Numbered from the stretch's first letter, positions 41,217 to 59,881 are shown. The stretch: DNA of 64,000 nt from a virus (IMGVR_UViG_3300028394_000042); one strand, 5' to 3'. Translations and numbers: made by a program. Notes: a model not told the origin generated them from the sequence alone.

Positions 41217-41277
41217 AGCTACCTCCGCAAGAAAAGAGTCCAGAGCAACCCAATACACCATATATTGGGTATCAAGT

Positions 41278-41306
41278 AATATGCCCGGAACTGGCGGAGT
41301 ATTTAG
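41278..41306 (-). promoter_or_regulatory. phage-type promoter P2
   Basis: CTAAAT-N17-CATATT. Confidence 0.65.
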
Positions 41307-41331
41307 ATAGCTTTACCGGCTGGCCCAGAGA

Positions 41332-42291
41332 TTAGGCGCTTGCGGCGCCCACACTGGCCCCAAACGCCATAGCAGCACTCTTGGAGCTATCAGGGGAGTT
41401 CTTGGCCCCAAAAGCTGCGTTGCCGTTGATGTTGCCGTCTACAGAGATACCCCCAAACGCGTTGATGGGGTTGAACATCGGGTTAGAGCCGCCACCGCCA
41501 CCGAATGGCTGAATAGGCTTGATGCCGCCCTTCACAGCTGGTTTCTTCTTCTTGTGCCTAGCCTTTGGGTCACGTGGCGCAATCGTACCCAGTGGCAGCA
41601 TCCCGGCGGCAGCGGCTGTCTTGGGCTGCTGTGGCTGTTGGGCTTGGACAGGCTGCTGTGGCTGCATAGCCTGCTGGGCTTGTGCTGCGGGCGCTGGTTG
41701 CTGCTGCGCCCCTATCGGCAACGGGTTTGCCGGGGCAGCCGCAGCAGCGGGATAAGTCTTTAATCCAGCGTTCGCCGGGGCTTGAGCGGCTTGTTGCTGG
41801 CCCTGAGCTTGCGCCTGTTCGTCCATAACAGCCTGCTGAACAGCCTGAGACAACACGACGGAAAGCTTTTTTAACAAAGGATTTACGTCCCCATCCTCCG
41901 CGAAACCAGCAAGTTCTTGAGTACTCTGGTTATAGGCACCCGGCGCGCTTTTCTGGTCTTGGTTCTCGCCGGCCTGAATATGTTCTTCGCCTGCGTATGT
42001 GGGTTTGTCGCTATGGGGGATCTGCACCTTTGTTAACTCTGAGTCTGCTTTCTTATGGTACTCGACGTAAAGTGAGTCCAGTACTGGTTTTACATCGATG
42101 AGTGCGCATTTTGTCATTAAGTTAACTAAACCAACAAGGGCATTTGCGCGCTTTTCAGCCTTTGTTTTCTTGTCTTTGTGGGCGTACGTTGGGAGATTCT
42201 TCTGGTTCGGGTACTCATCTGCCCAGCGCTTGGCTATATCGGGATGCTGTGACCACAAGAACCTGCGTTGCTTTTCTGATTGGAATGGCAT
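41332..42291 (-). CDS. low-complexity putative virion protein with KxA motifs
   Basis: MPFQSEKQRRFLWSQHPDIAKRW mini-domain; KRA, KKA, KTA and KSA motifs; Gln/Ala-rich. Confidence 0.7.
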   Translation of the reverse strand: MPFQSEKQRRFLWSQHPDIAKRWADEYPNQKNLPTYAHKDKKTKAEKRANALVGLVNLMTKCALIDVKPVLDSLYVEYHKKADSELTKVQIPHSDKPTYAGEEHIQAGENQDQKSAPGAYNQSTQELAGFAEDGDVNPLLKKLSVVLSQAVQQAVMDEQAQAQGQQQAAQAPANAGLKTYPAAAAAPANPLPIGAQQQPAPAAQAQQAMQPQQPVQAQQPQQPKTAAAAGMLPLGTIAPRDPKARHKKKKPAVKGGIKPIQPFGGGGGSNPMFNPINAFGGISVDGNINGNAAFGAKNSPDSSKSAAMAFGASVGAASA

Positions 42292-42406
42292 GGTACGAGC
42301 TGCCTCCAGATGTAGATACGAGCGCGTTAGCGAGTAAGCAGTATTTTGGCAGATACTTGGTGAAAAGCAAAGGACACAGGCATTTAGCTGTATAGCGCTG
42401 ATAGCT

Positions 42407-42439
42407 AAAAAAACCGCAGGCCCCGAAGGGTGTGCGGTT
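42407..42439 (-). terminator. intrinsic terminator
   Basis: CCGCA..CCCTTCGGGG..TGCGG followed by T7 on the minus strand. Confidence 0.7.
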
Positions 42440-42476
42440 ATTGGTTGCTGTTGGGAAGCAACCGTGTGTGGCTAGA

Positions 42477-42581
42477 CTAGAACAGCAGGTACGCGAGTAC
42501 CGGCTGCAGGAAAAAGGCGCCAACGCGTACGATGATTTCGTACGCGGCCAAAAACGCTACGCAAGCAATAACAAATCGCAT
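42477..42581 (-). CDS. 34-aa hydrophobic peptide
   Basis: manual translation MRFVIACVAFLAAYEIIVRVGAFFLQPVLAYLLF; AAGGA RBS; lies between promoter P3 and a terminator. Confidence 0.55.
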   Translation of the reverse strand: MRFVIACVAFLAAYEIIVRVGAFFLQPVLAYLLF

Positions 42582-42654
42582 TTTCTTGTTCCTTGTAGAC
42601 CTACTGGAAACCGCGCCACCTACACAGGTGAACAACAGCTATAGGTCATCAATG

Positions 42655-42683
42655 TATATACCCGGTTTTTGCCGTTTATTTAG
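42655..42683 (-). promoter_or_regulatory. phage-type promoter P3
   Basis: CTAAAT-N17-TATATA. Confidence 0.6.
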
Positions 42684-42709
42684 CTATCAATACCCGGGCG
42701 CTGATAGCT

Positions 42710-42746
42710 AAAAAAACGCGCAGACCCCGAAGGGCGTGCGCGTTTT
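42710..42746 (-). terminator. intrinsic terminator (paralog of 42407-42439)
   Basis: AAAACGCGCA..CCCTTCGGGG..TGCGCG followed by T7. Confidence 0.75.
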
Positions 42747-42771
42747 CTGCTGGCTCCTATGAGCCAACTAC

Positions 42772-43140
42772 CTATTTATCAAAGACCTTGACCAAGCCAC
42801 CGAGAGCCGTCAGCTCAGCAGCGGCGTATTTAACCGCCGCGTGTGAGCCGCGGACGATATGCGAGCGCCCGGCCATTCCATCTTCAACAATATTTCTTGC
42901 TGACGACAGAGAAATTTTGCTATCGTCGTCGTCATCAATGTAGATGCCTCTGATTAACTGGATCGCGCGGATCTTGTCCGTGATTTCCGGCAAGCTTATC
43001 AGTTGCAAATACAACGGCGCCTCGTCACACCGTAGCGCAAGCTGATGCGCGACGGTTTCGTGCAAGTCGGCGTTCACACCGCCGCCTGTAAGTTCAAGCA
43101 GTTCAAGCATCTGCTTGAACGTGAGCTTAACGTCGAACAT
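42772..43140 (-). CDS. protein with a ribosomal bL12 (L7/L12) C-terminal-like domain
   Basis: KIRAIQLIR..SLSSARNIVE..AAELTALGGLVKV resembles KI.vIK.vR..gLkeAk.lVE..Le.aGa.v.v. Confidence 0.5.
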   Translation of the reverse strand: MFDVKLTFKQMLELLELTGGGVNADLHETVAHQLALRCDEAPLYLQLISLPEITDKIRAIQLIRGIYIDDDDDSKISLSSARNIVEDGMAGRSHIVRGSHAAVKYAAAELTALGGLVKVFDK

Positions 43141-43376
43141 TATGCACCTCCTCTCAGATGGGCAAGATCGCGCTTGGCGTACAACGCAAGCGCCTCCTCG
43201 CGGGTCAGACCTACGAACTCCTCCGACGAGAATTCAAGCTCGTCGGGGAAGTAGTTGAACAGAACACTCTCGCGGTCGTCACCCGCGAACTTGACCCGCA
43301 CCTCTGGCGGCGGGTCACCCAGCATGTTGGGCATACCCGAAATCCGGCATTCAACGATCTTCGGGGGAACGAGCAT
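43140..43376 (-). CDS. hypothetical phage protein
   Basis: LFNYFPDELEF..EFVGLT motif. Confidence 0.7.
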   Translation of the reverse strand: MLVPPKIVECRISGMPNMLGDPPPEVRVKFAGDDRESVLFNYFPDELEFSSEEFVGLTREEALALYAKRDLAHLRGGA

Positions 43377-43432
43377 AACAACTCCCTTTTGTTATCTAAA
43401 CCACACCAAACCAACACCTAGCCCTACAAGGA

Positions 43433-44326
43433 CTAGGAGTTTTTCAACCGCCGATATGTATGGACGCGGGCGTCAACCACCAACCCCACACATTCCGCGT
43501 TGCGCCAATCTATATACTGGTCGCCCTGCTGTACTGTTTCACCTGTTTCTAACAACCGCCACCCTCTGCCGGGATTCGGCTTCGGGTCACACTGGCGGCG
43601 GTATTTGCCGACGTCGCGCCCGGGCAGTCGCTCGCCAAGCGACAAGTAAGCCGGCACCCAGTTGTCTTCTGAGTACTCAAACTCATCGCCTTCCACGATG
43701 ATTTCCCCTTCGCGCATAAACCGCCAATTCGCATTGTCGTCTGCCGGCGCTGGTGTTGTGCGGCGCCTATATCTAAGCTCGGGGTTAATTATTGTTGTCC
43801 CCGCCATTTTTGTCGGCACCCATCTGGAACTGAAGGCGTGGACTTGGTCGCCTTCTTCTAGCGTGTCACCTAACGCCAACAACTTCCAACCTTCTCCGGG
43901 GTCAACCCTCGGCTTAACCGCTGCCGGTGTTTCCACAGGTAGCGGTTCTGTAACCCGGCGGCGGAAGCGGCAGCCATGCGCAATCTGCTCCGCCGTAACT
44001 TTTGCGCCGATGCTGATATCGCAAGGCACCCACCAAGCGGGGTCAAACGGATTAGAGTTGCGATAATCCCCGTCTTGAATTGTCTCCCCTACTTCCAGCA
44101 GCCGCCACCCGTCGCCGGGGTCAACCGGCGGAACGGCGGAAACCGCTGCCGGCGGCTCTGGCGCAAGCTTAGGCTTTGCCGGCGCAGCCACAAGCTCTTC
44201 ACGAAGCTTTTCCGCCTGCTGCTTGAGCACATTGTTTTCTTTCGCTAATGCAACAATTTTTTTCCAGAGCTTAATGCCCATGGTAGCGGCATCTGTCAAC
44301 AGCTCCGAATCATCTTTTTCGTCCAT
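43433..44326 (-). CDS. protein with four tandem (DPG)xGWRLL..GE.I..GD..W..YRR repeats
   Basis: four internal ~45-aa repeats. Confidence 0.8.
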   Translation of the reverse strand: MDEKDDSELLTDAATMGIKLWKKIVALAKENNVLKQQAEKLREELVAAPAKPKLAPEPPAAVSAVPPVDPGDGWRLLEVGETIQDGDYRNSNPFDPAWWVPCDISIGAKVTAEQIAHGCRFRRRVTEPLPVETPAAVKPRVDPGEGWKLLALGDTLEEGDQVHAFSSRWVPTKMAGTTIINPELRYRRRTTPAPADDNANWRFMREGEIIVEGDEFEYSEDNWVPAYLSLGERLPGRDVGKYRRQCDPKPNPGRGWRLLETGETVQQGDQYIDWRNAECVGLVVDARVHTYRRLKNS

Positions 44327-44341
44327 TTTGCCCTTCTTTCT

Positions 44342-44773
44342 TTAGATGCTCCGCGTGAACCGTTCCAGCAGACTGTCTGGCACAGAGTCGCCTTCGGCCA
44401 GCTCCAGCAGCTGGATTAGGCGAGATATACTTTCCATAACGTCACTATCCGAATAATCGTCGTCATAGCGTCTGCTTGGCTCTGGTCCAAGCGCGGCAAT
44501 CTGTTCCACGCTAAGGCCGACAATAATCGATACATGCAAACATGTACCGTTAACGGCGCAATGAAGCGCCGAGTTTTTGTTTTCTTTCAATTTTTTATAC
44601 AAAATTTCTTGCGCAAGCTTTTGCGTCTTCTGGTGGTACACATCGAAGGCTTTTTCAACAGCTACTTTGTTCCTCTCCTGTTCTTGCTTTCTGTACTGCA
44701 ATTGCAGGAGTCGCTGTTCCAGCGCCGTTAGCGCTTTCGCCTTATTGATCACAAGCGGCAGTTTCTTAGCCAT
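44342..44773 (-). CDS. hypothetical coiled-coil protein
   Basis: coupled ORF. Confidence 0.6.
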   Translation of the reverse strand: MAKKLPLVINKAKALTALEQRLLQLQYRKQEQERNKVAVEKAFDVYHQKTQKLAQEILYKKLKENKNSALHCAVNGTCLHVSIIVGLSVEQIAALGPEPSRRYDDDYSDSDVMESISRLIQLLELAEGDSVPDSLLERFTRSI

Positions 44774-44777
44774 TTTT

Positions 44778-45341
44778 CTAGTCCCAGAATTCCTCGAAAT
44801 ATTTACCGAAAAGCGCAAAGCCACGAGCCTTGCGCTCCTGCCACGCGGTATACCCGACGACATCAAACCTGTCTCCGTCAAAGAACATGAAGTCGTCATT
44901 GATGAGCTTCTGTTCAAACGCCCACATTATCTCCTGCAGCACCCACTCCCAGCGGGCTTCTGCAGAGCTGTCGCATCCAGTCAAATGCTGCTCTTCCGTT
45001 GCCGGACAAGCAACAGTGCTACGTAACTCTTCCGGTACGTCAACATCGTAAACGTACGGAATCCCCGGCTTTTTCTGTTTGAGCCGCTGTAACAAGGGCA
45101 GCGTTATCAGCGCCAGCGTGTGGGCCATACTCCACACGTCGTAATCGTGCACTTCGATGCGCACTTTACGCTCAAACCTGTTGTTCGCCCAGCTTTCGAT
45201 CTTCCAGAGCTGGGTGTCCAACCAACTTTCCTCTTCATCTTCAAGCGGGTTGCGTTTTTTCCCGCTGCACCACAACCGGAAGTTGGCATACCATGTGGCT
45301 GGCCGAAACCACTGTTCCCACGGGCCGATGTATACTTTCAT
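44778..45341 (-). CDS. conserved hypothetical phage protein
   Basis: WS..TLA.I.LP.L..G.P, RW.WVL.E..WAFE, GF.LFGKY..WD pattern recalled from myovirus proteins. Confidence 0.7.
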   Translation of the reverse strand: MKVYIGPWEQWFRPATWYANFRLWCSGKKRNPLEDEEESWLDTQLWKIESWANNRFERKVRIEVHDYDVWSMAHTLALITLPLLQRLKQKKPGIPYVYDVDVPEELRSTVACPATEEQHLTGCDSSAEARWEWVLQEIMWAFEQKLINDDFMFFDGDRFDVVGYTAWQERKARGFALFGKYFEEFWD

Positions 45342-45685
45342 CCGCCCCTCCGAATCCGGTCGTGGACCTGCTTGCGAAACTCCATCATTTCTTCGCGAGT
45401 GGCATCACTGACAAGGTTTACCAGATACTTGCCGTCAACCTTGTCACGCATACTGCCACAGGTGTCGTGTAGCAGCCCGGACATGAATACACTGTCTGGC
45501 TTTCCGGTGGCTGTAACGCGGAAGTTCCAGCAGCCACCGCAAGACAGCCACTCCCATACTTCCTGCAACGATATATTCGTTGCATTTTGCCCGACAGTGT
45601 ATTCGTCCCCGCGCCTATATGGGTCGGAGATTAAGATATCAAAGCCCGATATCTTTTCGCATTCCTCGTAGTAGACAACGTCCAT
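45338..45685 (-). CDS. hypothetical protein
   Basis: coupled ORF. Confidence 0.55.
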   Translation of the reverse strand: MDVVYYEECEKISGFDILISDPYRRGDEYTVGQNATNISLQEVWEWLSCGGCWNFRVTATGKPDSVFMSGLLHDTCGSMRDKVDGKYLVNLVSDATREEMMEFRKQVHDRIRRGG

Positions 45686-46170
45686 CAGCGTGTCTCCTTT
45701 GGGCTTAATTCAAACAACGCGTCAGGCGGCCGATAGGCGCCCGGCAGTTCTGTTTTTGCCATATACCCCGGCTCGTGTAGACACCGGTCGAGAATAAAGT
45801 CGGCCTCTGCGCGGAGGTGCTCTTTACTCACATCCGCCAGCATGCTTCTGGTGTACTCAACGCCCTTGAACTCAAACGTTTTCTGTTCAGGGATTGTGAA
45901 CTCCAAGGTACCGAGCGACGAATCATCTGACTCGTGCACATGACATGTCTGCACAGTCACGCCAACCAAGTTCTCGTACTTGGCGTGCTCTGGAAGCCAC
46001 GGCCATTGGTGCGCCTGCGGTATAAGCAGGGTGACAGGCACCAGACAAGTTAAGCCCTTGATAGTCGCCCAGTCTTGCTCTAACTGGGCATACTCGGCAC
46101 GCGTCAATATCGCGTACCACTCCTTGTAGCCGAACTCCTCTGAGATCAAGAGGAGAACTTTGTCTTCCAT
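45685..46170 (-). CDS. hypothetical protein
   Basis: AGGAGG RBS. Confidence 0.65.
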   Translation of the reverse strand: MEDKVLLLISEEFGYKEWYAILTRAEYAQLEQDWATIKGLTCLVPVTLLIPQAHQWPWLPEHAKYENLVGVTVQTCHVHESDDSSLGTLEFTIPEQKTFEFKGVEYTRSMLADVSKEHLRAEADFILDRCLHEPGYMAKTELPGAYRPPDALFELSPKETR

Positions 46171-46336
46171 GCGAGCTACCTCCTGAGAAAGAAAACCGGG
46201 TGGGCCTTTTACGCCCCAGCCCTTATCTGAGACTATCTGCAGATCTTCTCAGTGCTCCTCCACGCATTCGCACGCCACCGAGTTCCCCGGCAGTCGGCGA
46301 ATGAAACAAAGTAGCGCCCGGTTATTTCCACCACAT

Positions 46337-46410
<74 letters not shown>

Positions 46411-46599
46411 CTAGAGACCCCGTTGCAATTTAACCCTGCGCACACGGGATAACATGCGCGGGGCGATGGTGTTACACATAATCTCGTATGCCGGCGACTA
46501 CCCCTGACTGGCATACAATATCCGAACTTTTGCACATCATCAACTAGCTGGCAATACCGGCTAGTTGGGTATGCACTGGCGTTGGACGACCAGATGGAA

Positions 46600-46911
46600 G
46601 CCTGCCGTACCTAGCGCAGCCTTACCCTGCCGGGCCTAACCGTGCCTGCCTGTCCACGGCTGGCCGAGCCCTGCCTTGCCACTACCACGCCTGCCAAGCC
46701 CGACCCAGTCATGCCTGTCCTGACCGAGCCGTGCCTAGCCGAGCCTGCCGTGCCCTGCCGCCCGTTCCCAGACTAGCCGGGGCATGCCCGCTCCGTGCCT
46801 GCCGTGCCTTACCCTGCCGGACCAAACCTTGCCACGCCTAGCCGAGCCTGCCGTGTCTAACCGCGCCCGTCCAAGCCACACCCTGCCGAGCCTAACCGCG
46901 CCTGCCGTGTC
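46600..46911 (-). ncRNA. GGY-NN pentamer guide-like array: 6 units delimited by 7 GGCAGGC motifs (VIPR-like vrRNA array)
   Basis: GCCTGCC on + at 46600, 46644, 46689, 46743, 46797, 46846 and 46900; spacing 44, 45, 54, 54, 49, 54 (4+5n except one); starts right after the partner gene stop. Confidence 0.85.
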
Positions 46912-46914
46912 TTA

Positions 46915-47376
46915 TCAGGCCCGCGCAGCTTGCCGGTTAGTACGGCGAGCCACGCGGTCAATCGCGGTAAACACAGGAGTTAACTCCTGCAAGGTCTGAT
47001 ACTTTCGCCGAACCCGCTGAAACTCTTCCAGACCCTGCTCTAGTAACTGTGCCCGCATGTCCTCGTCACTCATCACGTCTTCCAGCGTGCGATAACCGCC
47101 GCCGGTGTGACGATCAGATTTGAGAGAGACATACATCGGCACCGTTACATCGCCGCCCGCGGTGGGCAGCACATTGATATTTAAACGGATCACACGTCGG
47201 GCCTGCTCCAGTCGGTACTGATGCGCCGCTTTCGTGTTATTCCATTCGAACTCGCCGTGCAGCGCCGTGTTGCGGTTGCGGGCAAACTCAACGATAGCTT
47301 CAGGCAGTAGCTGCCCGTCGTTGTCGTTGCGGATCTGTTCAAGTTCCGCCCGAATCCTATCTTTGTTCTTTGACAT
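46915..47376 (-). CDS. accessory protein of the RAMP/array locus
   Basis: helical protein with LH..FEW....AA..YRL.QAR..IR; lies between the RAMP gene and the array. Confidence 0.8.
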   Translation of the reverse strand: MSKNKDRIRAELEQIRNDNDGQLLPEAIVEFARNRNTALHGEFEWNNTKAAHQYRLEQARRVIRLNINVLPTAGGDVTVPMYVSLKSDRHTGGGYRTLEDVMSDEDMRAQLLEQGLEEFQRVRRKYQTLQELTPVFTAIDRVARRTNRQAARA

Positions 47377-47393
47377 CACGTTTCCTTTTGGTG

Positions 47394-48149
47394 TCAATTA
47401 CGCACGCACTCAAAGTGCCCCCAACCCATACCGCACGAGTTAGGCGAATCAGCCCGACCTTCGCCAACGCCTACCTGCATGCCGGCACGCAGCATGAGAT
47501 TGGCAATGTCCGCAGGAGTGAACATATCCGCGTCAAAGCGGATACGAACCTTGGCTTCCCACGTGTCATACATAGCTCGAACCCTGATGTCGGCAACACC
47601 CGTGGCATTGCGCACCGTATGTTCAACGTGCCTTGGGACTGCATCCACCAGCTTACCGCGAGAATTCCGAGATTGAAGCCGGATTAGCGGCGTACCCTCA
47701 AACCTGTCAAACCCGTCCGCCTCCACAAAAACAGCCTTCTTGGCCTTGGTTTTGTGGAACCCGACCACCACGCAGGAGTCGACCAGCGCGTTGCGGAGCG
47801 CGCCTGCCGGGATACCGCACCACCCCTGCTTCGACTTGTGCTGAGCCTCTTCGAAGTTGGCGTCGAAGTCCTTAGCTTCGCGCTTCTTTCCCTTGCCGGC
47901 CGTGGAGCCAGCGGCCTGTTTTTCGCGCATTATGTTCCGAGCCTTGGCGCCGAACGCCAGCTGAACATATGGCGCCGTGCCGCGGATAAGGATCTCCACG
48001 GTCTTGAAGTTCGGCGCCGTGATAGTGACGCCAAGCCGATCAGATACAACTGCGTCGCTCTTATCGTCCTTTGGGCTGAGATGCTTTTCAACCTCGACCT
48101 TGACCTTGGTCTTCGTCGTCTTCTTTGCGCCCTTCAAAAGAGATGCCAT
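47394..48149 (-). CDS. stand-alone RAMP/Cas7-like RNA-binding protein (Vipr-like)
   Basis: beta1 IRGTAPY, GIPAGALRNAL (IPxxxLK/R helix motif), terminal glycine loop GMQVGVGEGR..GMGWGHF. Confidence 0.75.
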   Translation of the reverse strand: MASLLKGAKKTTKTKVKVEVEKHLSPKDDKSDAVVSDRLGVTITAPNFKTVEILIRGTAPYVQLAFGAKARNIMREKQAAGSTAGKGKKREAKDFDANFEEAQHKSKQGWCGIPAGALRNALVDSCVVVGFHKTKAKKAVFVEADGFDRFEGTPLIRLQSRNSRGKLVDAVPRHVEHTVRNATGVADIRVRAMYDTWEAKVRIRFDADMFTPADIANLMLRAGMQVGVGEGRADSPNSCGMGWGHFECVRN

Positions 48150-48389
48150 ACAATTCCTTTAGAGTTAGAGACAAAAACCCGCGCAGCAACAAGCTGGCAG
48201 GCACACCGCATCAAAAGTCTCGCCGCAGGGCTGTGGTCCTAGCGAGCATATTGATATCTATATCCGACCGGGCCGCATGCAGCGAACCGGCCATAGATAG
48301 CAATACTTCTACTACTCTCCCACTGTTTAAGGAGGCTGACTTCCCCCTGCATTTCGCAGCGCTGTTACACACGCTGCCGAGACAAGAAA

Positions 48390-48788
48390 CTATCGCGAGT
48401 ATCGCTTGCAGGCGTAATACCGGCCGTTCCGGTAAGTTACGCCTTGATCGACGACCGAGCCGCCGTTACGCGGTCGGCAGCAATTGTTAAGCGCAGCCGA
48501 TGGAGATGATCCCATGCCTACGCCCTCAAAACTGCTGTTGCCGCCGAAATGCTGGCACAACCCCGAGTTTGCCATCAGCTCACTAACTCCTTGTGCCGTG
48601 GAGTTGTTTGCTGCTGCGCTGCGGCGCCCAGTATGCCTGCTGCGGCACTTGCTGCAGTCGCACTGGTTCGCCACCGTGTATTCCTCATACACGGGGGCCT
48701 GCCCAAATACCGTGGTCACACCCACGGCAAAGAACACGCCCAGAATCAGAGCAACCAACAGAATCCGCATATCCGACTTTTTCATCAT
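48390..48788 (-). CDS. secreted Cys-rich protein
   Basis: signal peptide; H.GG..FEGVG..A.NNCC..YAC (CAP-like). Confidence 0.65.
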   Translation of the reverse strand: MMKKSDMRILLVALILGVFFAVGVTTVFGQAPVYEEYTVANQCDCSKCRSRHTGRRSAAANNSTAQGVSELMANSGLCQHFGGNSSFEGVGMGSSPSAALNNCCRPRNGGSVVDQGVTYRNGRYYACKRYSR

Positions 48789-48890
48789 TTTCCTCCGTGA
48801 AACCAAATACCGCGGGTGTGCACGGTACTCAAGAAAAACGCCCCACACCGGGCAAGACGGTATACCAAAGCCTAGGCGCGTTTGCCTAGG

Positions 48891-49238
48891 CTACTGTTGC
48901 GTTTCACGCCGCAGCGTTTGCATCGTGCGGTACCAGTCCCGGCTAATCCGGTCTCTGATGCGCAACACACGTTGCCTGAGCCAGCGCCGTACCATAAGGT
49001 ATGGCGTATTCAGGCCCGTCTCGTTCAAGTACTTGTTATACGACCACATGATTGCTTCGTCAGACCCTCCGTCTGTAATGGCGATATCGCAGGCCGTGCA
49101 GTACGAACAAGGCACAGACCACAACGGGACTTGATGCAGCACGCCATCAACCCGCATGGCCCACGTGTCGTTGAAGCTGCTGGCAATCATCGGCTCGCCG
49201 CAGACATAGCACTTAGTGTGCTTGTACTTTGCCGTCAT
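48891..49238 (-). CDS. YgiT/MqsA-type zinc-finger protein
   Basis: CYVCGE..VPCSYCTACD; AGGAGG RBS. Confidence 0.6.
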   Translation of the reverse strand: MTAKYKHTKCYVCGEPMIASSFNDTWAMRVDGVLHQVPLWSVPCSYCTACDIAITDGGSDEAIMWSYNKYLNETGLNTPYLMVRRWLRQRVLRIRDRISRDWYRTMQTLRRETQQ

Positions 49239-49527
49239 GTTGCACCTCCTTGAACCGCGGGAACCGGGCATTGCAGTCTGGGCACGCATACTCCCAGACT
49301 CCGTCATACCGCCCTTGGATCTCAATGCCGATGAGGCGGCTGAAACTGTAAGGCGGACTGTAGTTTTCTACAATCCACGCTTTCAGCTCCTCAGCCGATT
49401 TATCCGCGCACCATTTTTGGGGCCTTAAGCCATCAAAAATGCGACCAGCGCACCAGTTGGTGCCGCACTCGGGGCATGACCCAAAGTGGTTTAAGTGGTC
49501 TAAGTTGTCTAACTCTGTCGCGCTCAT
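49213..49527 (-). CDS. zinc-ribbon phage protein
   Basis: CPECG..FSRLIGIE..YDGV..CPDC. Confidence 0.65.
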   Translation of the reverse strand: MSATELDNLDHLNHFGSCPECGTNWCAGRIFDGLRPQKWCADKSAEELKAWIVENYSPPYSFSRLIGIEIQGRYDGVWEYACPDCNARFPRFKEVQHDGKVQAH

Positions 49528-49545
49528 AGACTACCTTCCTTCCAA

Positions 49546-49629
49546 TAGCCGGGGCGGGGTATGATCCCGCACGGGATTGCTCCCCCGGGATTTTAAATCC
49601 CGTGCGTCTGCCAATTTCGCCACCCGGCC
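49546..49629 (-). tRNA. tRNA-Leu(TAA)
   Basis: cloverleaf with long variable arm, anticodon loop TTTAAAA, atypical T-loop ATCATAC. Confidence 0.85.
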
Positions 49630-49667
49630 GGGGTTCCCACATTTAACGCCTGCGGGGCGGCGAGACA

Positions 49668-49994
49668 TCACTTACCTGACAACCCCACCCACGCCTCAAA
49701 GGCTGCAATTGAGCCGTGGCAACCCGCCGGTGCTCGGTTATAAAACCAGCGCACGTATAGCGGAATTAACGGCAGGTTATCTGCGTCTGCGTGCCCTACG
49801 GCGTTGCGCAGATCATTACAGATTACCGACGTCAGAAAGTCCACGTAGTGCAACCGCGGAGGATTGCCAGTTATTCCGCCGGGATACGGCGGCTGTCGAT
49901 CTATCACATACCGCCTGATTGTTTCCTGCATATGCGCAGGAATGACGGCATACTCCCCGGTAAACCACTCGGCTACCGGATATTCGAAGTCCAT
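49668..49994 (-). CDS. conserved hypothetical phage protein
   Basis: FL..V..NDL..AV..AD..N..Y..APA.C.GS motif. Confidence 0.7.
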   Translation of the reverse strand: MDFEYPVAEWFTGEYAVIPAHMQETIRRYVIDRQPPYPGGITGNPPRLHYVDFLTSVICNDLRNAVGHADADNLPLIPLYVRWFYNRAPAGCHGSIAAFEAWVGLSGK

Positions 49995-50281
49995 GCAACA
50001 TTCTCCCTTTCTTGGGTGTTAACCCATATGTACTGCTGTTCTCCAACTTGGCAATACCAGTGTTTCCCATCGTTCCAATAGATGGGCGTAACGGCCTGCT
50101 GCTCCGGCGGCATCACTGGCTTCTGGGCGGTGTGCGCCACAGGAGACGATACAGGATGTTCCTTCCTGTAGTCCTCATAGCCCTGCCAAAGAACCACGAG
50201 CGCCGTCAACAAAGCCGTCACGAACCCCACTGCATTCCCCTTCATGATCATCCACTCCTTGGTATACGTGTTTTCATCCAT
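49973..50281 (-). CDS. small membrane protein
   Basis: one TM; start probably at MIMKG after AAGGAG. Confidence 0.55.
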   Translation of the reverse strand: MDENTYTKEWMIMKGNAVGFVTALLTALVVLWQGYEDYRKEHPVSSPVAHTAQKPVMPPEQQAVTPIYWNDGKHWYCQVGEQQYIWVNTQERENVAWTSNIR

Positions 50282-50294
50282 GAAAACAGAACAT

Positions 50295-50368
50295 TGGAGC
50301 CTCTGGGGATCGAACCCAGAACCCTCGGATTAAAAGTCCGATGCTCTAACCAGTTGAGCTAAGGCTCC
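50295..50368 (-). tRNA. tRNA-Lys(TTT)
   Basis: GGAGCCTTAGCTCAACTGGTTAGAGCATCGGACT-TTT-AATCCGAGGGTTCTGGGTTCGATCCCCAGAGGCTCCA. Confidence 0.93.
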
Positions 50369-50404
50369 GCGCTATTTACCACTTTCCAGAAAGTGGTAAA
50401 TACG

Positions 50405-51016
50405 CTATTTCACACGGACAAACGGCCAGTTGCACCGCCCGTCTGGGCAGTCATTCTTGACCTCTGCGGGCGCGCCGTCAAGGACGCCGGCAAGACTGTC
50501 GTCATCCTCGCTACGCTCTGCCATGAACGGCAGGGTTCCTGCGACGGGCTCCGGTTTCGTGATAACCAGATGCACCCGCCACTTGCCGCCCTCGTACCAG
50601 AATTTCTGCTGGTACTCCACCTCTTGCCACTCGGGCAAGAGAGCCGAATGGTGCCTGAAGTTCAAGCCCGGCTTTTTGGGCTTGTGGTCTTCCTCGTTGT
50701 TCGGCCGGGTTGATTGCCGGACGAGGAAGGTCGCTTCTGGCGGGCTGAAGTTCAACAATTCAAACTTCTCCAGCTTCATCAGCACACTGGTCTCGTCGAA
50801 CATCTTCTGGGCCTCCCCAGCGAACTCCAATCCTTGGGCGCGGGTGCCTACCCGCTTGGAGATCGTACTCATAAGAGCGCGAAGATCTTTGTCTTCGCAT
50901 GCTTTGAAGTTTTTCTCCAAAACCGACCGGCACTCGTCTTTGACGGTGCCGAACTTTTGCGCCTCTGCCACGCCGGCGCAGCACAACACCAACACAACAG
51001 CCAAGAAATTCTTCAT
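50405..51016 (-). CDS. secreted NTF2/SnoaL-like protein
   Basis: signal peptide (AEA/Q), NTF2-like alpha-beta pattern, C-terminal CPDGRC. Confidence 0.6.
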   Translation of the reverse strand: MKNFLAVVLVLCCAGVAEAQKFGTVKDECRSVLEKNFKACEDKDLRALMSTISKRVGTRAQGLEFAGEAQKMFDETSVLMKLEKFELLNFSPPEATFLVRQSTRPNNEEDHKPKKPGLNFRHHSALLPEWQEVEYQQKFWYEGGKWRVHLVITKPEPVAGTLPFMAERSEDDDSLAGVLDGAPAEVKNDCPDGRCNWPFVRVK

Positions 51017-51074
51017 CTTACTCTCCCCAAAAAGTTACCGAAGCCCAGCAAATACACATTTGCATGGTGCAATA

Positions 51075-51103
51075 AATATGCCCGCTTATTTCTAGAAATT
51101 TAG
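51075..51103 (-). promoter_or_regulatory. phage-type promoter P4
   Basis: CTAAAT-N17-CATATT. Confidence 0.65.
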
Positions 51104-51119
51104 CGCGGCAGATTTTTGT

Positions 51120-52235
51120 TTATTGCGCAGCTTCAACAGCTTTTTCGGGGAGCGTATACCAGCCTTTGTCGTACAGCTGGTGGATTTTCTGGAAGGCGTC
51201 GTCGTATCGGGCACCGCAAGCTTCTAGGCTGTATGTCTCGCGGGCTTCTTTTGCGATTATGCGCCGGTCTAAGCTCGGGACTTTTTCCAGCGCTGTTAAC
51301 CAGTCAGACAGAGTCTTGCACCTGTAACCGTTCACGCCATGCTTAACAGTCTCCGCGAAAGCACCGTAATCGACTGAGACCAACGGGGTGCCACACAACA
51401 ACCCCTCTACGCCAGAACCGCCAAAGGGCTCAATGAAGTTCGTGGGCATAAGTGAGCAGATGGCGTTGCGCATGAACTCACTGCGGGCTGTACCTGAGAT
51501 TGGCCCCCTGTATTCGATGTTCGGGTGCGCCCAGTGCGTGTGATCTCCTTGGCCGTGCAGGATGATCTTAGGGCTGCCGGGTGGAAGGAACTTAGCCAGT
51601 TCATAGATAGTGTGCAGACCCTTACACTCGGCTATGCGCCCCAGAAACGCGTAATACTGCCCCGGCTCAAACTTGGGGCGCCAGTCGTTGATCTCGAAGT
51701 AGTTGGGAATAACCCACTCGTAGTTCCCGGCTTGGCGATTGTCTTTGCCTGAGTGAAAGTGGCGCCACGCATAGCTTTCGAAGATCTTGACCATTCTGGG
51801 TACAGTCGTCGGGTACCCAATGCCAGTTTCGACGTGGATATGATTCGGGAACACGTCGAGCAGGATAGAGTGCGCGTGACCAAAGGGGTGGCAAATGATG
51901 TCCTTTGGCTGGACACGCGCTTTCATGGCTGCAATAAGCCGGCGCTCGAATTCACCGTGTTGGGGCGAGCCTAAGTTAGCTGAATCTCCGTAGAAGTCCT
52001 TTTCGCTTTTACGGGCGACCATCTCTTCCAGTTCAGCCTTGGTCAGCATCACGAACTTTTCTTGAGCTTCACTTTCGCTACCCTCGTTGGCGTACTCCAC
52101 TACAGGATAGCCATACATCTGCAGCATCTTGGAGAACCGCAGCGCTTTGCCAGTAAAAGCACAGTGCGAGTAAGCCTGCGAATGGATCGTGTGGAAGATA
52201 CCAACGAGATGCAGCGTGGGCTTTGTTACAGACAC
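51120..52235 (-). CDS. GT-B glycosyltransferase (GT4-like)
   Basis: FLGRI..KG, EPFG..VE...GTP, E...G.NGY. Confidence 0.9.
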   Translation of the reverse strand: MSVTKPTLHLVGIFHTIHSQAYSHCAFTGKALRFSKMLQMYGYPVVEYANEGSESEAQEKFVMLTKAELEEMVARKSEKDFYGDSANLGSPQHGEFERRLIAAMKARVQPKDIICHPFGHAHSILLDVFPNHIHVETGIGYPTTVPRMVKIFESYAWRHFHSGKDNRQAGNYEWVIPNYFEINDWRPKFEPGQYYAFLGRIAECKGLHTIYELAKFLPPGSPKIILHGQGDHTHWAHPNIEYRGPISGTARSEFMRNAICSLMPTNFIEPFGGSGVEGLLCGTPLVSVDYGAFAETVKHGVNGYRCKTLSDWLTALEKVPSLDRRIIAKEARETYSLEACGARYDDAFQKIHQLYDKGWYTLPEKAVEAAQ

Positions 52236-52260
52236 AGAGCACTCCTTTGCCAGATATAGC

Positions 52261-52704
52261 TCAAGACTTAGCAGCGAACGGAAATACAGTCTGGGCGCTG
52301 TTTTGCGCTTGTTCGGCCTCTAGTTTATCGGCAGCAGCACGAAGTTGCGCGGCTAATTTCTTGCGGGCAGACTCAGACGGAGCTGGGACGCTGAGGGTGT
52401 ACGAGTCTTTGGGGCCGAACCTAACTGTAATGCCGTCGATGTTTGTCTGGACGCCAAGTGGTGAGAAGATACCTACAAACCGGCGCAGCGCTGTGTTCTC
52501 GGCAAGAATAGACGTGATGGCGTTGGCCAGTTCGGCAATACGGGGATCTTCAAACACAGGCCGGGCAACAGAGTTAGTGAGGTGAAACAAGCTGCGCAAG
52601 CTGGATACGATGCTGTCTACAGGAGGCAACGTGAAAGCTTCTACACGGGGGAAAGCTGCTTCTGTCTTTGGGTGTTTGCAGCACGCGCCGGGTTTGTTGC
52701 ACAT
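52261..52704 (-). CDS. hypothetical protein
   Basis: AGGAG RBS. Confidence 0.6.
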   Translation of the reverse strand: MCNKPGACCKHPKTEAAFPRVEAFTLPPVDSIVSSLRSLFHLTNSVARPVFEDPRIAELANAITSILAENTALRRFVGIFSPLGVQTNIDGITVRFGPKDSYTLSVPAPSESARKKLAAQLRAAADKLEAEQAQNSAQTVFPFAAKS

Positions 52705-52712
52705 GAGGGCTC

Positions 52713-53330
52713 CTAGGGTAAAGATAACTTAACGCGCTTCACGGCGTTGTGCTCGGCTAAGTAACAACTGGCGCATACGGGCACGTACTTTTCTTCAAAA
52801 CCAAGTTCTATAGCGGGGCCGTCTAGCGTGGGCTGACCATTGCGTAGCTTAAGGTTGAACACAGCTTTTTGCAAGCAATACATGCACACTGTTTTGACCT
52901 CTTCCAGCACGTCGGCCAGTTCAAGTAAGCGCGCTGAAGCTGGGAACGCCCGCCGCCTGAAGTCAGTGCGCAGGCCATAGCATATTACAGGCACGCCCTC
53001 GCGGTTATAGGGCTGATACGTGCAAGCATGGGCAACGCAGTGCAGCTGGTCTATGGCTTCAACAGAAAGAAACTGGGCCTCGTCTACAAGCACGCACACG
53101 ACGCCGGCCATATCTGGAAGTTTCATTGGCCCCGTGGCTGGGACCAGCAAGTCAGCTGTAGCTTCAAGGCCAGCCCGCGTCTTAATGATATCTTTACCGT
53201 ACCGCGTGTCTATTTCTGGCTTGAGCAAAAGGACTTTCTTGCCCTGTTGCCTGTAGTTATGCGCTACTGCCAGTAAGTTCAAGGTCTTTGCGCTGCCGAC
53301 AGCCCCATACCGAAAGTACAGCTTAGCCAT
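52713..53330 (-). CDS. tdk: thymidine kinase
   Basis: YGAVGSAKT, VDEAQF, YGLRTDF, Zn lasso CxxC..C..C. Confidence 0.95.
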   Translation of the reverse strand: MAKLYFRYGAVGSAKTLNLLAVAHNYRQQGKKVLLLKPEIDTRYGKDIIKTRAGLEATADLLVPATGPMKLPDMAGVVCVLVDEAQFLSVEAIDQLHCVAHACTYQPYNREGVPVICYGLRTDFRRRAFPASARLLELADVLEEVKTVCMYCLQKAVFNLKLRNGQPTLDGPAIELGFEEKYVPVCASCYLAEHNAVKRVKLSLP

Positions 53331-56136
53331 TGCGCTTGGCTTCTACCTTTCTTGCTCGACGGATAGCCAGCAACACAATTTGCTTGGCTGCGAACTCCAC
53401 GAAAGGCAGACTACGCCTTTCTGACTCCTCGCGCAACCAGCCAAGAATCTCAGGCACTCGCTTTGCGCACTCGTCGCAGCCCCAGATGTCCATTTGGCGC
53501 GCACGGCCATTGCAGGAGCACGTAGGGGACGCCGTGATGCCAATGAGCTTGAGCATCTTCTTGAGTTCTGTGCCGGGGCCAAAGTCAGGCATGACAGGCG
53601 GCGCGGTGCTTGGCGCAGTGGGCAAGTCAGTGTCGGGTCGGGCTGTGAAGGGCATGCCAGCTACCGGGCCACAAATTGGTTTGCCGTGGTCTATTTTTGG
53701 CAACGAATTAGCCAACACAAAACCGTTGCACGTAGCGTTATTCACTGTTGAAATCAATTTTTTACCAAGTGAGTCAAACACATATGGAATGTTGTTTAAA
53801 TCCGCGCCCTGTATTGTTTCGTCTGCGCGATTAGGGATCTGAAACTTGATTGACGTAATAATTTTGTCTGTGACGTTTTTATATGTATTTGTATCGCAGT
53901 CAATTACGTACAACTGCACGCTTTCTGTGCCAAATGGAATATCTGCCGGATTAAGTCTGGTTTTACGTGCGTATACGCCCACAAGCGCGCAGTTATTAGC
54001 GCGAATTTTTTGAAGGTACGCGTCAGTAGTGCTGACAACAACGCTAGAGCCGGGGTTTTGGCTGACTGTGTAACACGGGCCAAAGTTGGAAGCTACAGTG
54101 ACGTATAATTTGCCCTCAAATAAGTCAGTAATAGCGTCCCGCACGCTTGCTTCTGTTTTGCCTCTTACGTCTATCTCCCTACTAAAATTTTCGTAATTGT
54201 TTTCAACAGTGCCGGACGACCGTGTATCGCCGCCGCCCAGCGGGCCAACAGGTGGGCAGGTAGGGCAAGGCCCGCACAGCTCCGGGTCTTTTGCGCACTT
54301 ACCGTCGGCGCCGCACTTCATGTCTTCCATGCACGGGAAAGCGCCGCCCGCATCAGTGCACGTTGGCGCACTACAAGGCGGACTGTCTTTGTTTTGACAC
54401 CTGATTGTGTAATGCCATTTGTCGGCGTTGGCGTTGTTGCAAGACTCAAGCACACGCACCTGAAATGTAGTGAGCCCCTTGGGCTTCGTGAAAATCATGA
54501 AACCTTCGGGCGCATCTAGCGCGCCTACGTTAGCCGGGCAAGTGCTTTTATCTATGCCGCGCCACTGGCTGTCTATTACCGGCGAGATGTATACGCCGGG
54601 GTTTGTAATTACGCAAGTAGTTACGTCTATTTGCTCTCTGTAAACTTGAAATCTGTTTGGTATTTTGTACGCGTTGTAGCTGAGGCAAAATTTCATCTCT
54701 GCCGAGCCAACCGTAAATATTTTTATAGGCTCGCCCGTAATTTTTACGCCGGATTCAGGTATTGCGCAGTCGCCGGCTGCAACTTGTTGGCAACCAGCAG
54801 CTATGCATTCAGCTTGTGTTGTGTATTGCCCCGTCGTAAGCGGCGCAATGTTTACACACGCGCCAACACCGCAACCGTTGATAACGCAGTTCCAAGTTTT
54901 AGCGGGCGGATTATTGGGATCGACGGGATCGACGGGGTCTGTGCAGCCGATACAGACATTCGCGTTACATGAATCGTTACAGGCTTGATCTGTTTCGTAC
55001 GGCCCGGCAACAGAACCGGCCGGCGGCGTTGTACCTGACTGGCAGTAGTGTGTAGTCGGGCTGCCATCTGGCGGCGGCGGGTTAGCCATGCAATACCAAA
55101 GCGGTTTGCTGCCACAGTCGCCGTTACAGTCTGGCGTGCTGTACTGGCCGCCACCTGTTGAGGCTTGTCGACATGTGTACGCGCCGCCGTTGTATACGCA
55201 GTCATAACGCGGTTCTGTGCAATTACTTGTACCGTCGCTGTTTTGGCAACCCGAATTGTTATACGGCCCAGATGTAGCGCCGTCACCACACTGAGACTCC
55301 AAGCAAGTGCCGCCGTAGCAATAATATTTTTTAGAGCCGTTTTCAGCGCTATCGCACGGATTTTGCCCGGCGTTACCTGACGAATTTGAATCAGAGCAAT
55401 CTGGCGTTGTGTACGTGACGCCGACAATCATGTCATCTGTTACTGGTACACATTCGGAATAGCCATCCATCGGCCCCGGATTGGGATAACCCAGCGGATT
55501 CGTCCCTTGCCCTACGCCGCCATCTAGCCCGTATTTCTCGTCAATGGTTATGCAACCACCAGCCGTTGGGGCATAACTTGCAGGCTGGCACGTATACAGC
55601 TTTTTGCAACAACATTTATCTACAGTTGCGCCGTCGGCTACTTGCACAAAACCCGCATCCGAGAGCCGCGCGGTTACTCCCAGCGATTCCCCAAGCGGAT
55701 TTCTGCCGTACCGCCCCACGCCACCGTCTAGCCCTGATTTTTGGTCGGTGGTTCTGTATGTTGCCGTTGAACTATATAACAGCTTGTTGTCTTTGAGCAC
55801 CAGTTTTGAGCTTATTGCCGTAACAGTCATCTCCTGACTCATTACAGAAGCAGCCGGCCCGCTTGCTGTAATGAAGCAGCGATACTTATCACCGACATTT
55901 GCCTGCTGCAAATTGGTGATTGTGTAATAGGAGCTATACGGCCCGGACGTACCCGACACCTGCGTGAAAGAAGCTGCGTCTTTGGCTTTTTTTTGCCATT
56001 GGAAACCTAGCGTTGGCGGCACATCTGTCGCCTCTAGATTTTCAATTGTGACCGTTACGCTGATAAGTCGCGTAGAGCCAATTGGGCCAGATATATCACT
56101 AGATTGCGACGTAATGCGAACGACTGGAATAGGCAT
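53323..56136 (-). CDS. large Cys-rich Ig-domain structural protein
   Basis: N-terminal Ig (FQWQ..YRC), many C..G.Y...C...C repeats, C-terminal GPGTELKK..CSC..MD.WG domain. Confidence 0.75.
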   Translation of the reverse strand: MPIPVVRITSQSSDISGPIGSTRLISVTVTIENLEATDVPPTLGFQWQKKAKDAASFTQVSGTSGPYSSYYTITNLQQANVGDKYRCFITASGPAASVMSQEMTVTAISSKLVLKDNKLLYSSTATYRTTDQKSGLDGGVGRYGRNPLGESLGVTARLSDAGFVQVADGATVDKCCCKKLYTCQPASYAPTAGGCITIDEKYGLDGGVGQGTNPLGYPNPGPMDGYSECVPVTDDMIVGVTYTTPDCSDSNSSGNAGQNPCDSAENGSKKYYCYGGTCLESQCGDGATSGPYNNSGCQNSDGTSNCTEPRYDCVYNGGAYTCRQASTGGGQYSTPDCNGDCGSKPLWYCMANPPPPDGSPTTHYCQSGTTPPAGSVAGPYETDQACNDSCNANVCIGCTDPVDPVDPNNPPAKTWNCVINGCGVGACVNIAPLTTGQYTTQAECIAAGCQQVAAGDCAIPESGVKITGEPIKIFTVGSAEMKFCLSYNAYKIPNRFQVYREQIDVTTCVITNPGVYISPVIDSQWRGIDKSTCPANVGALDAPEGFMIFTKPKGLTTFQVRVLESCNNANADKWHYTIRCQNKDSPPCSAPTCTDAGGAFPCMEDMKCGADGKCAKDPELCGPCPTCPPVGPLGGGDTRSSGTVENNYENFSREIDVRGKTEASVRDAITDLFEGKLYVTVASNFGPCYTVSQNPGSSVVVSTTDAYLQKIRANNCALVGVYARKTRLNPADIPFGTESVQLYVIDCDTNTYKNVTDKIITSIKFQIPNRADETIQGADLNNIPYVFDSLGKKLISTVNNATCNGFVLANSLPKIDHGKPICGPVAGMPFTARPDTDLPTAPSTAPPVMPDFGPGTELKKMLKLIGITASPTCSCNGRARQMDIWGCDECAKRVPEILGWLREESERRSLPFVEFAAKQIVLLAIRRARKVEAKRNG

Positions 56137-58042: not shown

Positions 58043-59881
<1,839 letters not shown>

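What the first reader, a model, noticed from the sequence alone, without database searches (positions are those of the whole stretch)
46600..48149. Compact RNA-guided system: stand-alone RAMP/Cas7-like gene + partner gene + GGY-NN pentamer guide array (VIPR-like)
Seen: a 251-aa protein with RAMP hallmarks (IRGTAPY strand, GIPAGALRNAL, terminal glycine loop GVGEGR..GMGWGHF), then a ~153-aa gene, then a ~310-nt non-coding array on the same strand. The array has seven GGCAGGC delimiters. Between them the minus strand reads conserved GGY triplets alternating with variable dinucleotides, e.g. TC GGC TA GGC GT GGC AA GGT TT GGT CC GGC AG GGT AA GGC AC. No cas1, cas2, nuclease or classical CRISPR repeat is in the window. 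Known: RAMP/Cas7 proteins polymerise along guide RNA with a fixed nucleotide periodicity. From memory, this layout matches the recently reported phage VIPR systems, in which GGY/NN guides specify gapped dsDNA targets; that match needs verifying. Inference: each unit is one guide, each pentamer binds one RAMP subunit, and the NNs encode a non-contiguous target, probably a rival phage or a promoter.
Basis: partly seen in the sequence, partly recalled or inferred. Interest (0 to 1): 0.97.

Follow-up and report, generated by a model that had tools for sequence, protein, structure and literature searches.

The report
VIPR guide-RNA system in a freshwater phage
This is a real three-part VIPR locus (a small Cas7-like protein, an accessory gene and an array of GGY/NN pentamer guides) in an uncultured large phage; VIPR systems were described in 2026 preprints, so it is a new member of a known kind rather than a new system.

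Summary

- **Locus.** On the minus strand lie a 251-aa gene (48149-47394), a 153-aa gene (47376-46915) and a non-coding array (46911-46602). The array has six head-to-tail units of GGY/NN pentamers.
- **Protein.** The predicted fold matches CRISPR RAMP backbone subunits (Csm3, Cmr4, Cas7), with Z up to 10.1. It aligns weakly but co-linearly with the tested SUSP1 Vipr, and conserved positions align with three of SUSP1's RNA-contact residues (two identical, one Asp to Glu).
- **Array.** It has 33 GGY-to-GGY steps of exactly 5 nt, against 3.3 in shuffles. It is the only such call in the 64-kb window.
- **Relatives.** 117 of 133 homologous loci carry same-strand arrays. Register breaks are almost always -1, at a GGCAG|GC junction. 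This fits the published "staggered" array form.
- **Turnover.** Against a relative with 89% protein identity, the genes stay 83-86% identical but most guide units are replaced.
- **Not found.** No natural target was found. Expression was not testable. The VIPR type (I-VII) could not be assigned.

VIPR is described in 2026 bioRxiv preprints, so novelty is modest. The scan had noted this array and the partner gene before, on this same window.

The parts
47394..48149 (-). vipr: 251-aa stand-alone RAMP (Cas7/Csm3-like) protein
   Evidence: ORF. AF2 model has pLDDT 78.5. VIA-align top rows are Csm3, Cmr4, gRAMP and Cas7 with Z 10.1-7.3 over residues 44-251. Foldseek gives 38 matches at E<=1e-3; all those listed are CRISPR effector complexes. 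BLASTP against SUSP1 Vipr gives E 2e-4; hhalign gives E 1.5e-5 over 110 columns. PHROG 4652, unknown function.
46915..47376 (-). vap-like accessory gene, 153 aa: possible winged-helix N-terminal domain plus C-terminal helical hairpin
   Evidence: ORF. Same gene call in identical loci L083 and L084. PHROG 15946, unknown function. A homologue follows vipr in about 70 of 80 viral loci. Model pLDDT 82.8. Residues 1-100 give only weak matches (Z 4.5-5.9), mostly to winged-helix domains. No similarity to SUSP1 vap1.
46602..46911 (-). Staggered vrRNA array. A short leader remnant (46911-46902) is followed by six guide units: U1 46902-46848, U2 46848-46799, U3 46799-46745, U4 46745-46691, U5 46691-46646, U6 46646-46602. 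Each unit shares one G with the next.
   Evidence: Unit starts are 54, 49, 54, 54, 45 and 44 nt apart (9-11 pentamers). U3 and U5 have slips. The junction GGCAG|GC matches the family-wide junction.
46411..46601 (-). Conserved non-coding stretch after the last guide, with hairpins
   Evidence: 74% identical to relative L085, with arm changes in two hairpins that keep pairing. RNA fold -68.9 kcal/mol, z -2.0. No Rfam family. Its role is not established.
46337..46410 (-). tRNA-Met (CAT) directly downstream on the same strand; a neighbour and probably not part of the system
   Evidence: Relative L085 has a T-run and the next gene at this point instead.

Best explanation
This is a VIPR (Viral Interference Programmable Repeat) locus of the 'staggered array' form, carried by an uncultured large freshwater phage.

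The operon on the minus strand encodes Vipr, an accessory protein, and a precursor RNA holding six guides.

Proposed mechanism, by analogy with the tested SUSP1 and P. fulva systems:
1. One Vipr protomer binds each pentamer.
2. The G-loop and thumb hold the GGY bases away from pairing and expose each NN dinucleotide.
3. The string of NNs pairs with double-stranded DNA while skipping every third target base.
4. The bound filament blocks transcription of a competing mobile element.
5. The small, possibly winged-helix accessory protein assists at the DNA.

Guides here are set apart not by a structured tail or a ribozyme but by a -1 register break at GGCAG|GC. I infer that this break ends one filament and starts the next.

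What is shown here: the fold, the residue conservation, the array anatomy, its conservation next to homologues, and the fast turnover of guide content.

What is inferred from the papers: RNA binding, the one-base skip rule, silencing, and the kind of target.
For: - Fold: RAMP fold with a glycine loop between the last helix and last strand.
- Residues: invariant family positions R191, E230 and R232 align with SUSP1 R138, D177 and R179. The structure paper describes those residues as GGY contacts, and alanine substitution of R138 or D177 abolished silencing.
- Array statistics.
- Conservation of the array: 75 of 80 viral loci and 42 of 53 genome loci with a homologue carry same-strand arrays, against 5 opposite-strand calls in all.
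- Junctions: among the 80 viral loci, Cy-LDV1 and the window, 160 register breaks are -1, against one of +1 and one of +2. The junction reads GGC-A-G|GC and the spacings are 5k-1 nt.
- Scaffold versus guide: 3648 distinct units have Y = C 89% or T 11%, and NN entropy is 3.84 of 4 bits.
- Turnover: against the 89%-identical relative, vipr and vap are 83% and 86% identical in DNA. Array units 1-5 fall to 41-63%, while the last unit is 92%.
- Transcription: relatives end their arrays with hairpin-plus-T-run terminators on the same strand, by my reading of the sequence.
- Literature: the published description of staggered arrays with 1-nt overlaps matches this layout.
Against: - No natural target was found. 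The best matches in the window and in 1.6 Mb of related loci (both strands) equal the shuffled-guide null.
- Exact one-base-skip patterns for units 1, 2 and 4 gave 0 hits in IMG/VR and, for units 1 and 4, 0 hits in JGI metagenomes.
- Five related phage records have no match to units 2 or 4 within 3 mismatches.
- Similarity to the tested Vipr is weak: hhalign probability is 79%, and W178 aligns with a glycine.
- The accessory protein is unrelated in sequence to vap1, and its fold matches are weak.
- Staggered arrays were, per the paper, not among the forms confirmed by small-RNA sequencing.
- No promoter was identified.
Confidence: 0.88

Rival explanations
1. It is a VIPR-type ribonucleoprotein, but it regulates the phage's own genes (timing control) instead of attacking competitors.
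For: No external target was found. The last guide unit is 92% conserved between relatives and unit 3 also recurs in the relative by eye, as would suit a fixed internal target. Only 64 kb of a genome that may reach about 165-200 kb could be scanned.
Against: Best in-window matches are 15-16 of 20-22 informative positions, the same as shuffled guides. The published surveys report no self-targeting at 80% or more NN match. Most guides turn over between close relatives, which suits an arms race.
Confidence: 0.07
2. The pentamer tract acts at the DNA level, as an iteron-like array bound by the winged-helix-like partner protein, or as a G-rich structural element. It is not a guide RNA.
For: The partner protein's N-terminal domain weakly resembles DNA-binding winged helices. 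No expression data exist for this locus.
Against: The array is on the gene strand in 117 of 133 loci, with almost none on the other strand. Relatives place intrinsic terminators right after the array. The variable NN with fixed GGY, and the RAMP partner, match a system shown experimentally to be RNA-based.
Confidence: 0.03
3. The tract is protein-coding or a chance low-complexity G-rich repeat.
For: Short ORFs of 44-71 aa overlap it. In Mycobacterium phage BobaPhett an equivalent tract is annotated as a CDS, gp51.
Against: A 5-nt period with -1 breaks is incompatible with a reading frame. The periodicity far exceeds shuffles. The tract is conserved as an architecture, not as a peptide.
Confidence: 0.02

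Closest known systems
VIPR systems, staggered-array form (bioRxiv 10.64898/2026.04.26.720920, text and legend of fig. S18)
   Same: Stand-alone Vipr RAMP, a vap gene and GGY/NN pentamer guides. Guides abut, with a 1-nt overlap, so the end of one is the start of the next. Viral host genome. No cas genes.
   Different: Which of the seven published types this belongs to could not be determined, because the type tables and trees were not available. This member sits in an uncultured phage of about 165 kb or more, whose nearest genome-binned relatives are Planctomycetota MAGs. It carries a recurring degenerate unit and a conserved structured stretch after the array.
Type II VIPR of Escherichia phage SUSP1 (NC_028808.2; vipr at 28474-29061)
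   Same: Same fold class. The co-linear motifs I-x-G-T-x-P, a basic K-K-R...D-F/Y patch, helix-1 with an invariant Cys, and the G-loop G-V-G-[DE]-x-R are shared. Residues aligning with R138, D177 and R179 are conserved. The locus order vipr-vap-array is the same.
   Different: Only about 21-24% identity over the aligned part. Each SUSP1 vrRNA stands alone with a roughly 40-nt pseudoknotted 3' tail, whereas here the units are head-to-tail with no tail per guide. The accessory proteins show no sequence similarity. W178 of SUSP1 aligns with Gly; the family instead has an 8-residue insertion with a nearly invariant Trp.
Class 1 CRISPR backbone subunits (Csm3, Cmr4, Cas7)
   Same: RRM core, glycine-rich loop, and a long beta-hairpin whose invariant R191 aligns with a SUSP1 thumb residue. 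Best structural matches have Z 10.1-7.3.
   Different: No CRISPR repeats, no cas1, cas2, large or small subunits or nuclease nearby. The guide period is 5 nt rather than 6, and the published VIPR target is gapped double-stranded DNA.

Membership tests
VIPR | Vipr protein: minimal single-RRM RAMP with G-loop and thumb | tested here: met
   AF2 model. VIA-align Z 10.1 (rmsd 3.8, 149 aligned) to Csm3 and 9.8 to Cmr4, and 34 of the first 35 rows are CRISPR RAMPs. Foldseek gives 38 matches at E<=1e-3; all those listed are CRISPR effector complexes. The G-loop lies between helix 212-226 and strand 246-248.
VIPR | Sequence relationship to an experimentally characterised Vipr | tested here: met
   BLASTP against SUSP1 Vipr gives E 2e-4. 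hhalign gives E 1.5e-5, probability 79%, over 110 columns. R191, E230 and R232 align with R138, D177 and R179 and are invariant in the family. The match is weak, so this places it in the superfamily, not in type II.
VIPR | Adjacent same-strand tract of at least 4 YNNGG/GGYNN units | tested here: met
   About 60 pentamers in six units. 33 in-phase steps against 3.3 in shuffles.
VIPR | GGY conserved while NN is hypervariable among relatives | tested here: met
   Y = C 89% or T 11% and NN entropy 3.84 of 4 bits over 3648 units. Guide units are replaced between relatives with 89% protein identity.
VIPR | Array conserved next to homologues of the protein | tested here: met
   75 of 80 IMG/VR loci and 42 of 53 genome loci. 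Also Cy-LDV1 and BobaPhett.
VIPR | Minimal two-gene locus without cas genes or a CRISPR array; mostly viral | tested here: met
   for the locus. Phage structural genes are in the window and the relatives are IMG/VR contigs.
VIPR | vrRNAs expressed and co-purifying with Vipr | not testable with these tools
   Needs small-RNA sequencing and a pull-down.
VIPR | Targets obey the one-base-skip rule; natural targets lie in competing elements | tested here: inconclusive
   No match above the null locally. No exact match in IMG/VR or JGI metagenomes. A test with a Bradyrhizobium prophage guide gave 4 hits at 2 mismatches in 301 genomes, about what I estimate for chance.
VIPR type II (SUSP1-like) | Each vrRNA capped by a conserved structured 3' tail of about 40 nt | tested here: not met
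   Units abut at GGCAG|GC with no tail per guide. Only one conserved stretch follows the whole array.
Class 1 CRISPR-Cas | CRISPR repeat-spacer array plus cas gene set | tested here: not met
   No such repeats in 40000-54000. No cas domains in the two genes or in ten neighbours.

The most novel reading that the evidence does not exclude
In this staggered subtype the -1 register slip at GGCAG|GC may itself be the signal that delimits guides. A Vipr filament would stop where the pentamer register breaks, a new one would nucleate on the shared G, and the exposed junction would be cut by host RNases. That would be guide biogenesis with no repeat hairpin, ribozyme, tail or Cas6-like enzyme. The recurring degenerate unit 3, with its GGGCATGCCC palindrome, could be a regulatory element and not a guide.
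Probability: 0.3. Interest if true: 0.6.

Novelty: new member of a known kind. Interest (0 to 1): 0.36.

Why it matters
It confirms that a tool-free reading of raw sequence correctly picked out a VIPR locus.

It also adds a well-documented example of the staggered array form. The source paper states that only the ribozyme-interspersed and single-guide forms were confirmed by small-RNA sequencing. The example comes with a family-wide junction rule (GGCAG|GC, always -1, units of 5k-1 nt) drawn from more than 130 loci, which makes guide boundaries predictable.

The family is very large: 3415 clusters at 50% identity. It spans many phyla, including Mycobacterium phages (genus Cheoctovirus) in which the array is annotated as a protein gene.

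For programmable DNA-binding tools, tail-less head-to-tail guides would be a compact way to multiplex.

Tried and rejected
- Family libraries: Pfam, NCBIfam and PADLOC gave nothing for either protein. PHROGs gave only unknown-function families.
- PDB sequence search: only a chance hit at E 0.29.
- Rfam: only the tRNA.
- Promoter scan: none. Two terminator-like sites were found, both on the wrong strand.
- Target search: the local scan against shuffled guides, four IMG/VR pattern scans, two metagenome scans and two scans of five related phage records were all negative.
- Test of the skip rule with a Bradyrhizobium prophage guide: about what chance would give.
- Accessory protein fold: Foldseek best E 0.4. 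The wide search was dominated by generic helical hairpins.
- A GCCTGCC motif upstream of vipr, the reverse complement of the junction motif, is absent from 11 relatives, so I rejected it as chance.
- Host: no whole genome is held for the window, and a structural gene had no match among cultured phages.

Full report
**What is there**

On the minus strand the window holds three features:
- a 251-aa ORF at 48149-47394, with a good ribosome-binding site;
- 17 nt later, a 153-aa ORF at 47376-46915;
- starting 4 nt after its stop codon, a G-rich non-coding tract that runs to about 46602.

A tRNA-Met lies at 46410-46337 on the same strand. Identical copies of both genes and the tract occur in two other samples. 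One is a JGI metagenome and one is an SRA run. The same two genes are called there.

**The array**

Seven GGCAGGC motifs lie at 46906, 46852, 46803, 46749, 46695, 46650 and 46606. Between them the sequence reads as GGY followed by two variable bases. Units 1, 2, 4 and 6 are clean. Units 3 and 5 have small compensating slips.

The motif is a register junction, not a separate delimiter. Each unit ends GGC-AG, and the next unit starts on that last G, so the pentamer register moves by -1. The start-to-start spacings are therefore 54, 49, 54, 54, 45 and 44 nt.

The periodicity is far beyond chance. There are 33 GGY-to-GGY steps of exactly 5 nt, against 3.3 (sd 1.8, maximum 10) in 1000 dinucleotide-preserving shuffles. 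A simple caller that requires 6 of 8 in-register GGY finds only this tract in the whole window on either strand. As a positive control, the same caller recovers the one upstream and three downstream vrRNAs published for phage SUSP1.

**The protein**

No family library names it; the only hit is PHROG 4652, of unknown function.

An AlphaFold2 model built on 25 homologues has mean pLDDT 78.5. Its structural matches are overwhelmingly CRISPR RAMP subunits:
- VIA-align gives Z 10.1 to Csm3 and 9.8 to Cmr4.
- These are followed by gRAMP and Cas7-11 domains, then type IV, type I and type VII Cas7.
- All of these cover residues 44-251.
- Foldseek gives 38 matches at E<=1e-3, and all those listed are CRISPR effector complexes.

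The glycine-rich loop sits where a RAMP G-loop should, between the last helix and the last strand.

I fetched the experimentally studied SUSP1 locus, using the accession and deletion coordinates given in the third VIPR paper. BLASTP of the two proteins gives E 2e-4 over the G-loop region. A profile comparison gives E 1.5e-5 and probability 79% over 110 columns.

In that alignment, R191, E230 and R232 of the window protein pair with SUSP1 R138, D177 and R179. All three are invariant in my 25-sequence alignment. The structure paper describes those SUSP1 residues as GGY contacts, and alanine substitution of R138 or D177 abolished silencing. SUSP1 W178 pairs with a glycine here. The family instead has an insertion with a nearly invariant tryptophan.

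The relation is therefore real but distant.

**Is VIPR real, and does this fit?**

Its published features are:
- a stand-alone RAMP (Vipr), usually with one accessory gene (vap);
- RNAs made of 9-16 GGY/NN pentamers;
- a mostly viral location;
- recognition of double-stranded DNA by the NN positions, with one target base skipped per unit;
- transcriptional silencing of competing phages and satellites.

The first paper names several array forms. One is "staggered arrays with overlapping vrRNAs", in which guides derive from positions that overlap by 1 nt. That is the layout seen here. By the paper's own wording, the forms confirmed by small-RNA sequencing were the ribozyme-interspersed and single-guide ones, not the staggered one.

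**Comparative evidence**

The protein family is large. It has 1821 hits in the 90%-identity collection, and 3415 clusters at 50% identity with E<=0.001.

Same-strand pentamer arrays lie next to the gene in most homologous loci:
- 75 of the 80 IMG/VR loci I fetched have one within 1.5 kb upstream or 2.5 kb downstream. The opposite strand gave five calls in all. About 70 of the 80 also have a homologue of the 153-aa gene.
- 42 of 53 loci from reference genomes have one, with none on the other strand. Several of the loci without an array are cut short by contig ends.

Across the 80 viral loci, Cy-LDV1 and the window, register breaks inside arrays were -1 in 160 cases, against one of +1 and one of +2. 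The junction reads GGC-A-G|GC, with A at 93% and C at 95-98%. Spacings cluster at 44, 49, 54, 59, 64 and 69 nt, which is 9-14 pentamers.

Over 3648 distinct units, the third base is C in 89% and T in 11%. All sixteen NN dinucleotides occur, with entropy 3.84 of 4 bits.

I compared the window with a relative whose Vipr is 89% identical:

| Segment | DNA identity |
|---|---|
| vipr | 83% |
| vap | 86% |
| Array units 1-2 | 63% |
| Unit 3 | 41% |
| Units 4-5 | 46% |
| Last unit (6) | 92% |
| Stretch after the array | 74% |

Most of what remains shared in units 1-5 is the GGY scaffold. The automatic alignment does not pair unit 3 with its counterpart. By eye the degenerate unit 3, including a palindrome, recurs further along the relative's array. 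Other relatives carry 12-14 units and end with clear hairpin-plus-T-run terminators on the gene strand. That supports transcription in this direction.

**The partner gene**

It has only a PHROG of unknown function and shows no similarity to SUSP1 vap1.

Its model (pLDDT 82.8) has an N-terminal helix-helix-helix-helix-hairpin domain and a C-terminal long helical hairpin. Foldseek finds nothing better than E 0.4. Re-aligning Foldseek's own list gives Z 4.5-5.9 for residues 1-100, mostly to winged-helix domains such as PadR, MecI/BlaI, MarR, ArsR, Fur and Fox.

This is suggestive only. It agrees with the paper's remark that several vap proteins are predicted DNA binders.

**Targets**

I turned units 1, 2, 4, 5 and 6 into NN-x-NN patterns, as in the published method.
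- In the window and 1.6 Mb of related loci (both strands), the best scores were 14-16 of 18-22 informative positions. Shuffled guides score the same. So there is no self-target in the 64 kb seen.
- Exact patterns found nothing in IMG/VR (units 1, 2, 4) or JGI metagenomes (units 1, 4).
- Five related phage records, one of them a complete 198-kb genome, have no match to units 2 or 4 within three mismatches.
- A side test used a guide from a Bradyrhizobium prophage of the same family. It gave four hits at two mismatches in 301 genomes, about what I estimate for chance.

This negative result is therefore weak.

**Setting**

The window is phage DNA. It carries a collagen-like tail fibre, head proteins, a glycosyltransferase and an SNF2-type helicase, plus three tRNAs.

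The protein's own contig is listed at 165 kb. Related contigs are 73-198 kb, and one of them is complete with terminal repeats. A structural gene had no match among cultured phages.

The nearest genome-binned homologues are Planctomycetaceae and Planctomycetota MAGs from lakes, at 64% and 56% identity. This hints at the host but does not show it.

**Verdict**

The locus is a VIPR system of the staggered form. It is not type II, because its guides lack individual tails. I could not assign one of the seven types, because the type tables and trees were not available.

The kind has been published and surveyed at scale, so this is a new member of a known kind. The most useful additions are the family-wide junction rule and the evidence of guide turnover. 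The earlier scan notes on the decoded dinucleotide strings and on the partner gene describe the same features on this window, and my parsing agrees with them.

Noticed in passing
L091:2155-2366 (Mycobacterium phage BobaPhett, NC_051636.1, about 37873-38084): A GGY/NN array lies directly upstream of the Vipr homologue gp52 and overlaps the annotated 'hypothetical protein' gp51. That CDS call is probably an artefact. About 27 Mycobacterium phage records carry the homologue at about 30% identity. In BobaPhett it sits next to repressor and excisionase genes.
   Followed up: partly
L001:4028-5620 (Cyanophage Cy-LDV1, BK059895.1): The order is vipr, array, vap-like gene, second array, and it uses the same GGCAGGC junctions. 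It sits between cI-like repressor and excisionase genes of a lambdoid-looking element.
   Followed up: partly
window 46745-46799 (-): Guide unit 3 is degenerate, with +1 and -1 slips, and holds the palindrome GGGCATGCCC. It recurs in the 89% relative as GGTCATGGCC, a change that keeps pairing through a G-U. GGCATGCC-like palindromes also occur inside the arrays of L004, L005 and L092. Its role is unknown.
   Followed up: partly
window 48249-48305: An 18-nt inverted repeat (83% complementary, 21-nt spacer) with a central GCATGC palindrome lies about 100-150 nt upstream of the vipr start. It could be an operator or an RNA hairpin. It is not conserved in sequence in the relative.
   Followed up: partly
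window 46411-46601 (-): The non-coding stretch after the array is 74% identical to the relative's. Two of its hairpins have arms that change together, for example CAACTAGC...GCTAGTTG against CAACGC...GCGTTG. There is no Rfam match. In the window a tRNA-Met replaces the relative's T-run.
   Followed up: partly
window 49546-49629 and 50295-50368 (-): Two further tRNA genes, Leu-TAA and Lys-TTT, lie upstream of the locus on the same strand.
   Followed up: no
window 58043-59848 (-), 34703-37069 (-), 51120-52235 (-): A collagen-like tail fibre protein, an SNF2-type helicase domain and a glycosyltransferase. A structural-looking gene at 39934-40968 has no match in cultured phages, so the phage lineage is poorly sampled.
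   Followed up: no
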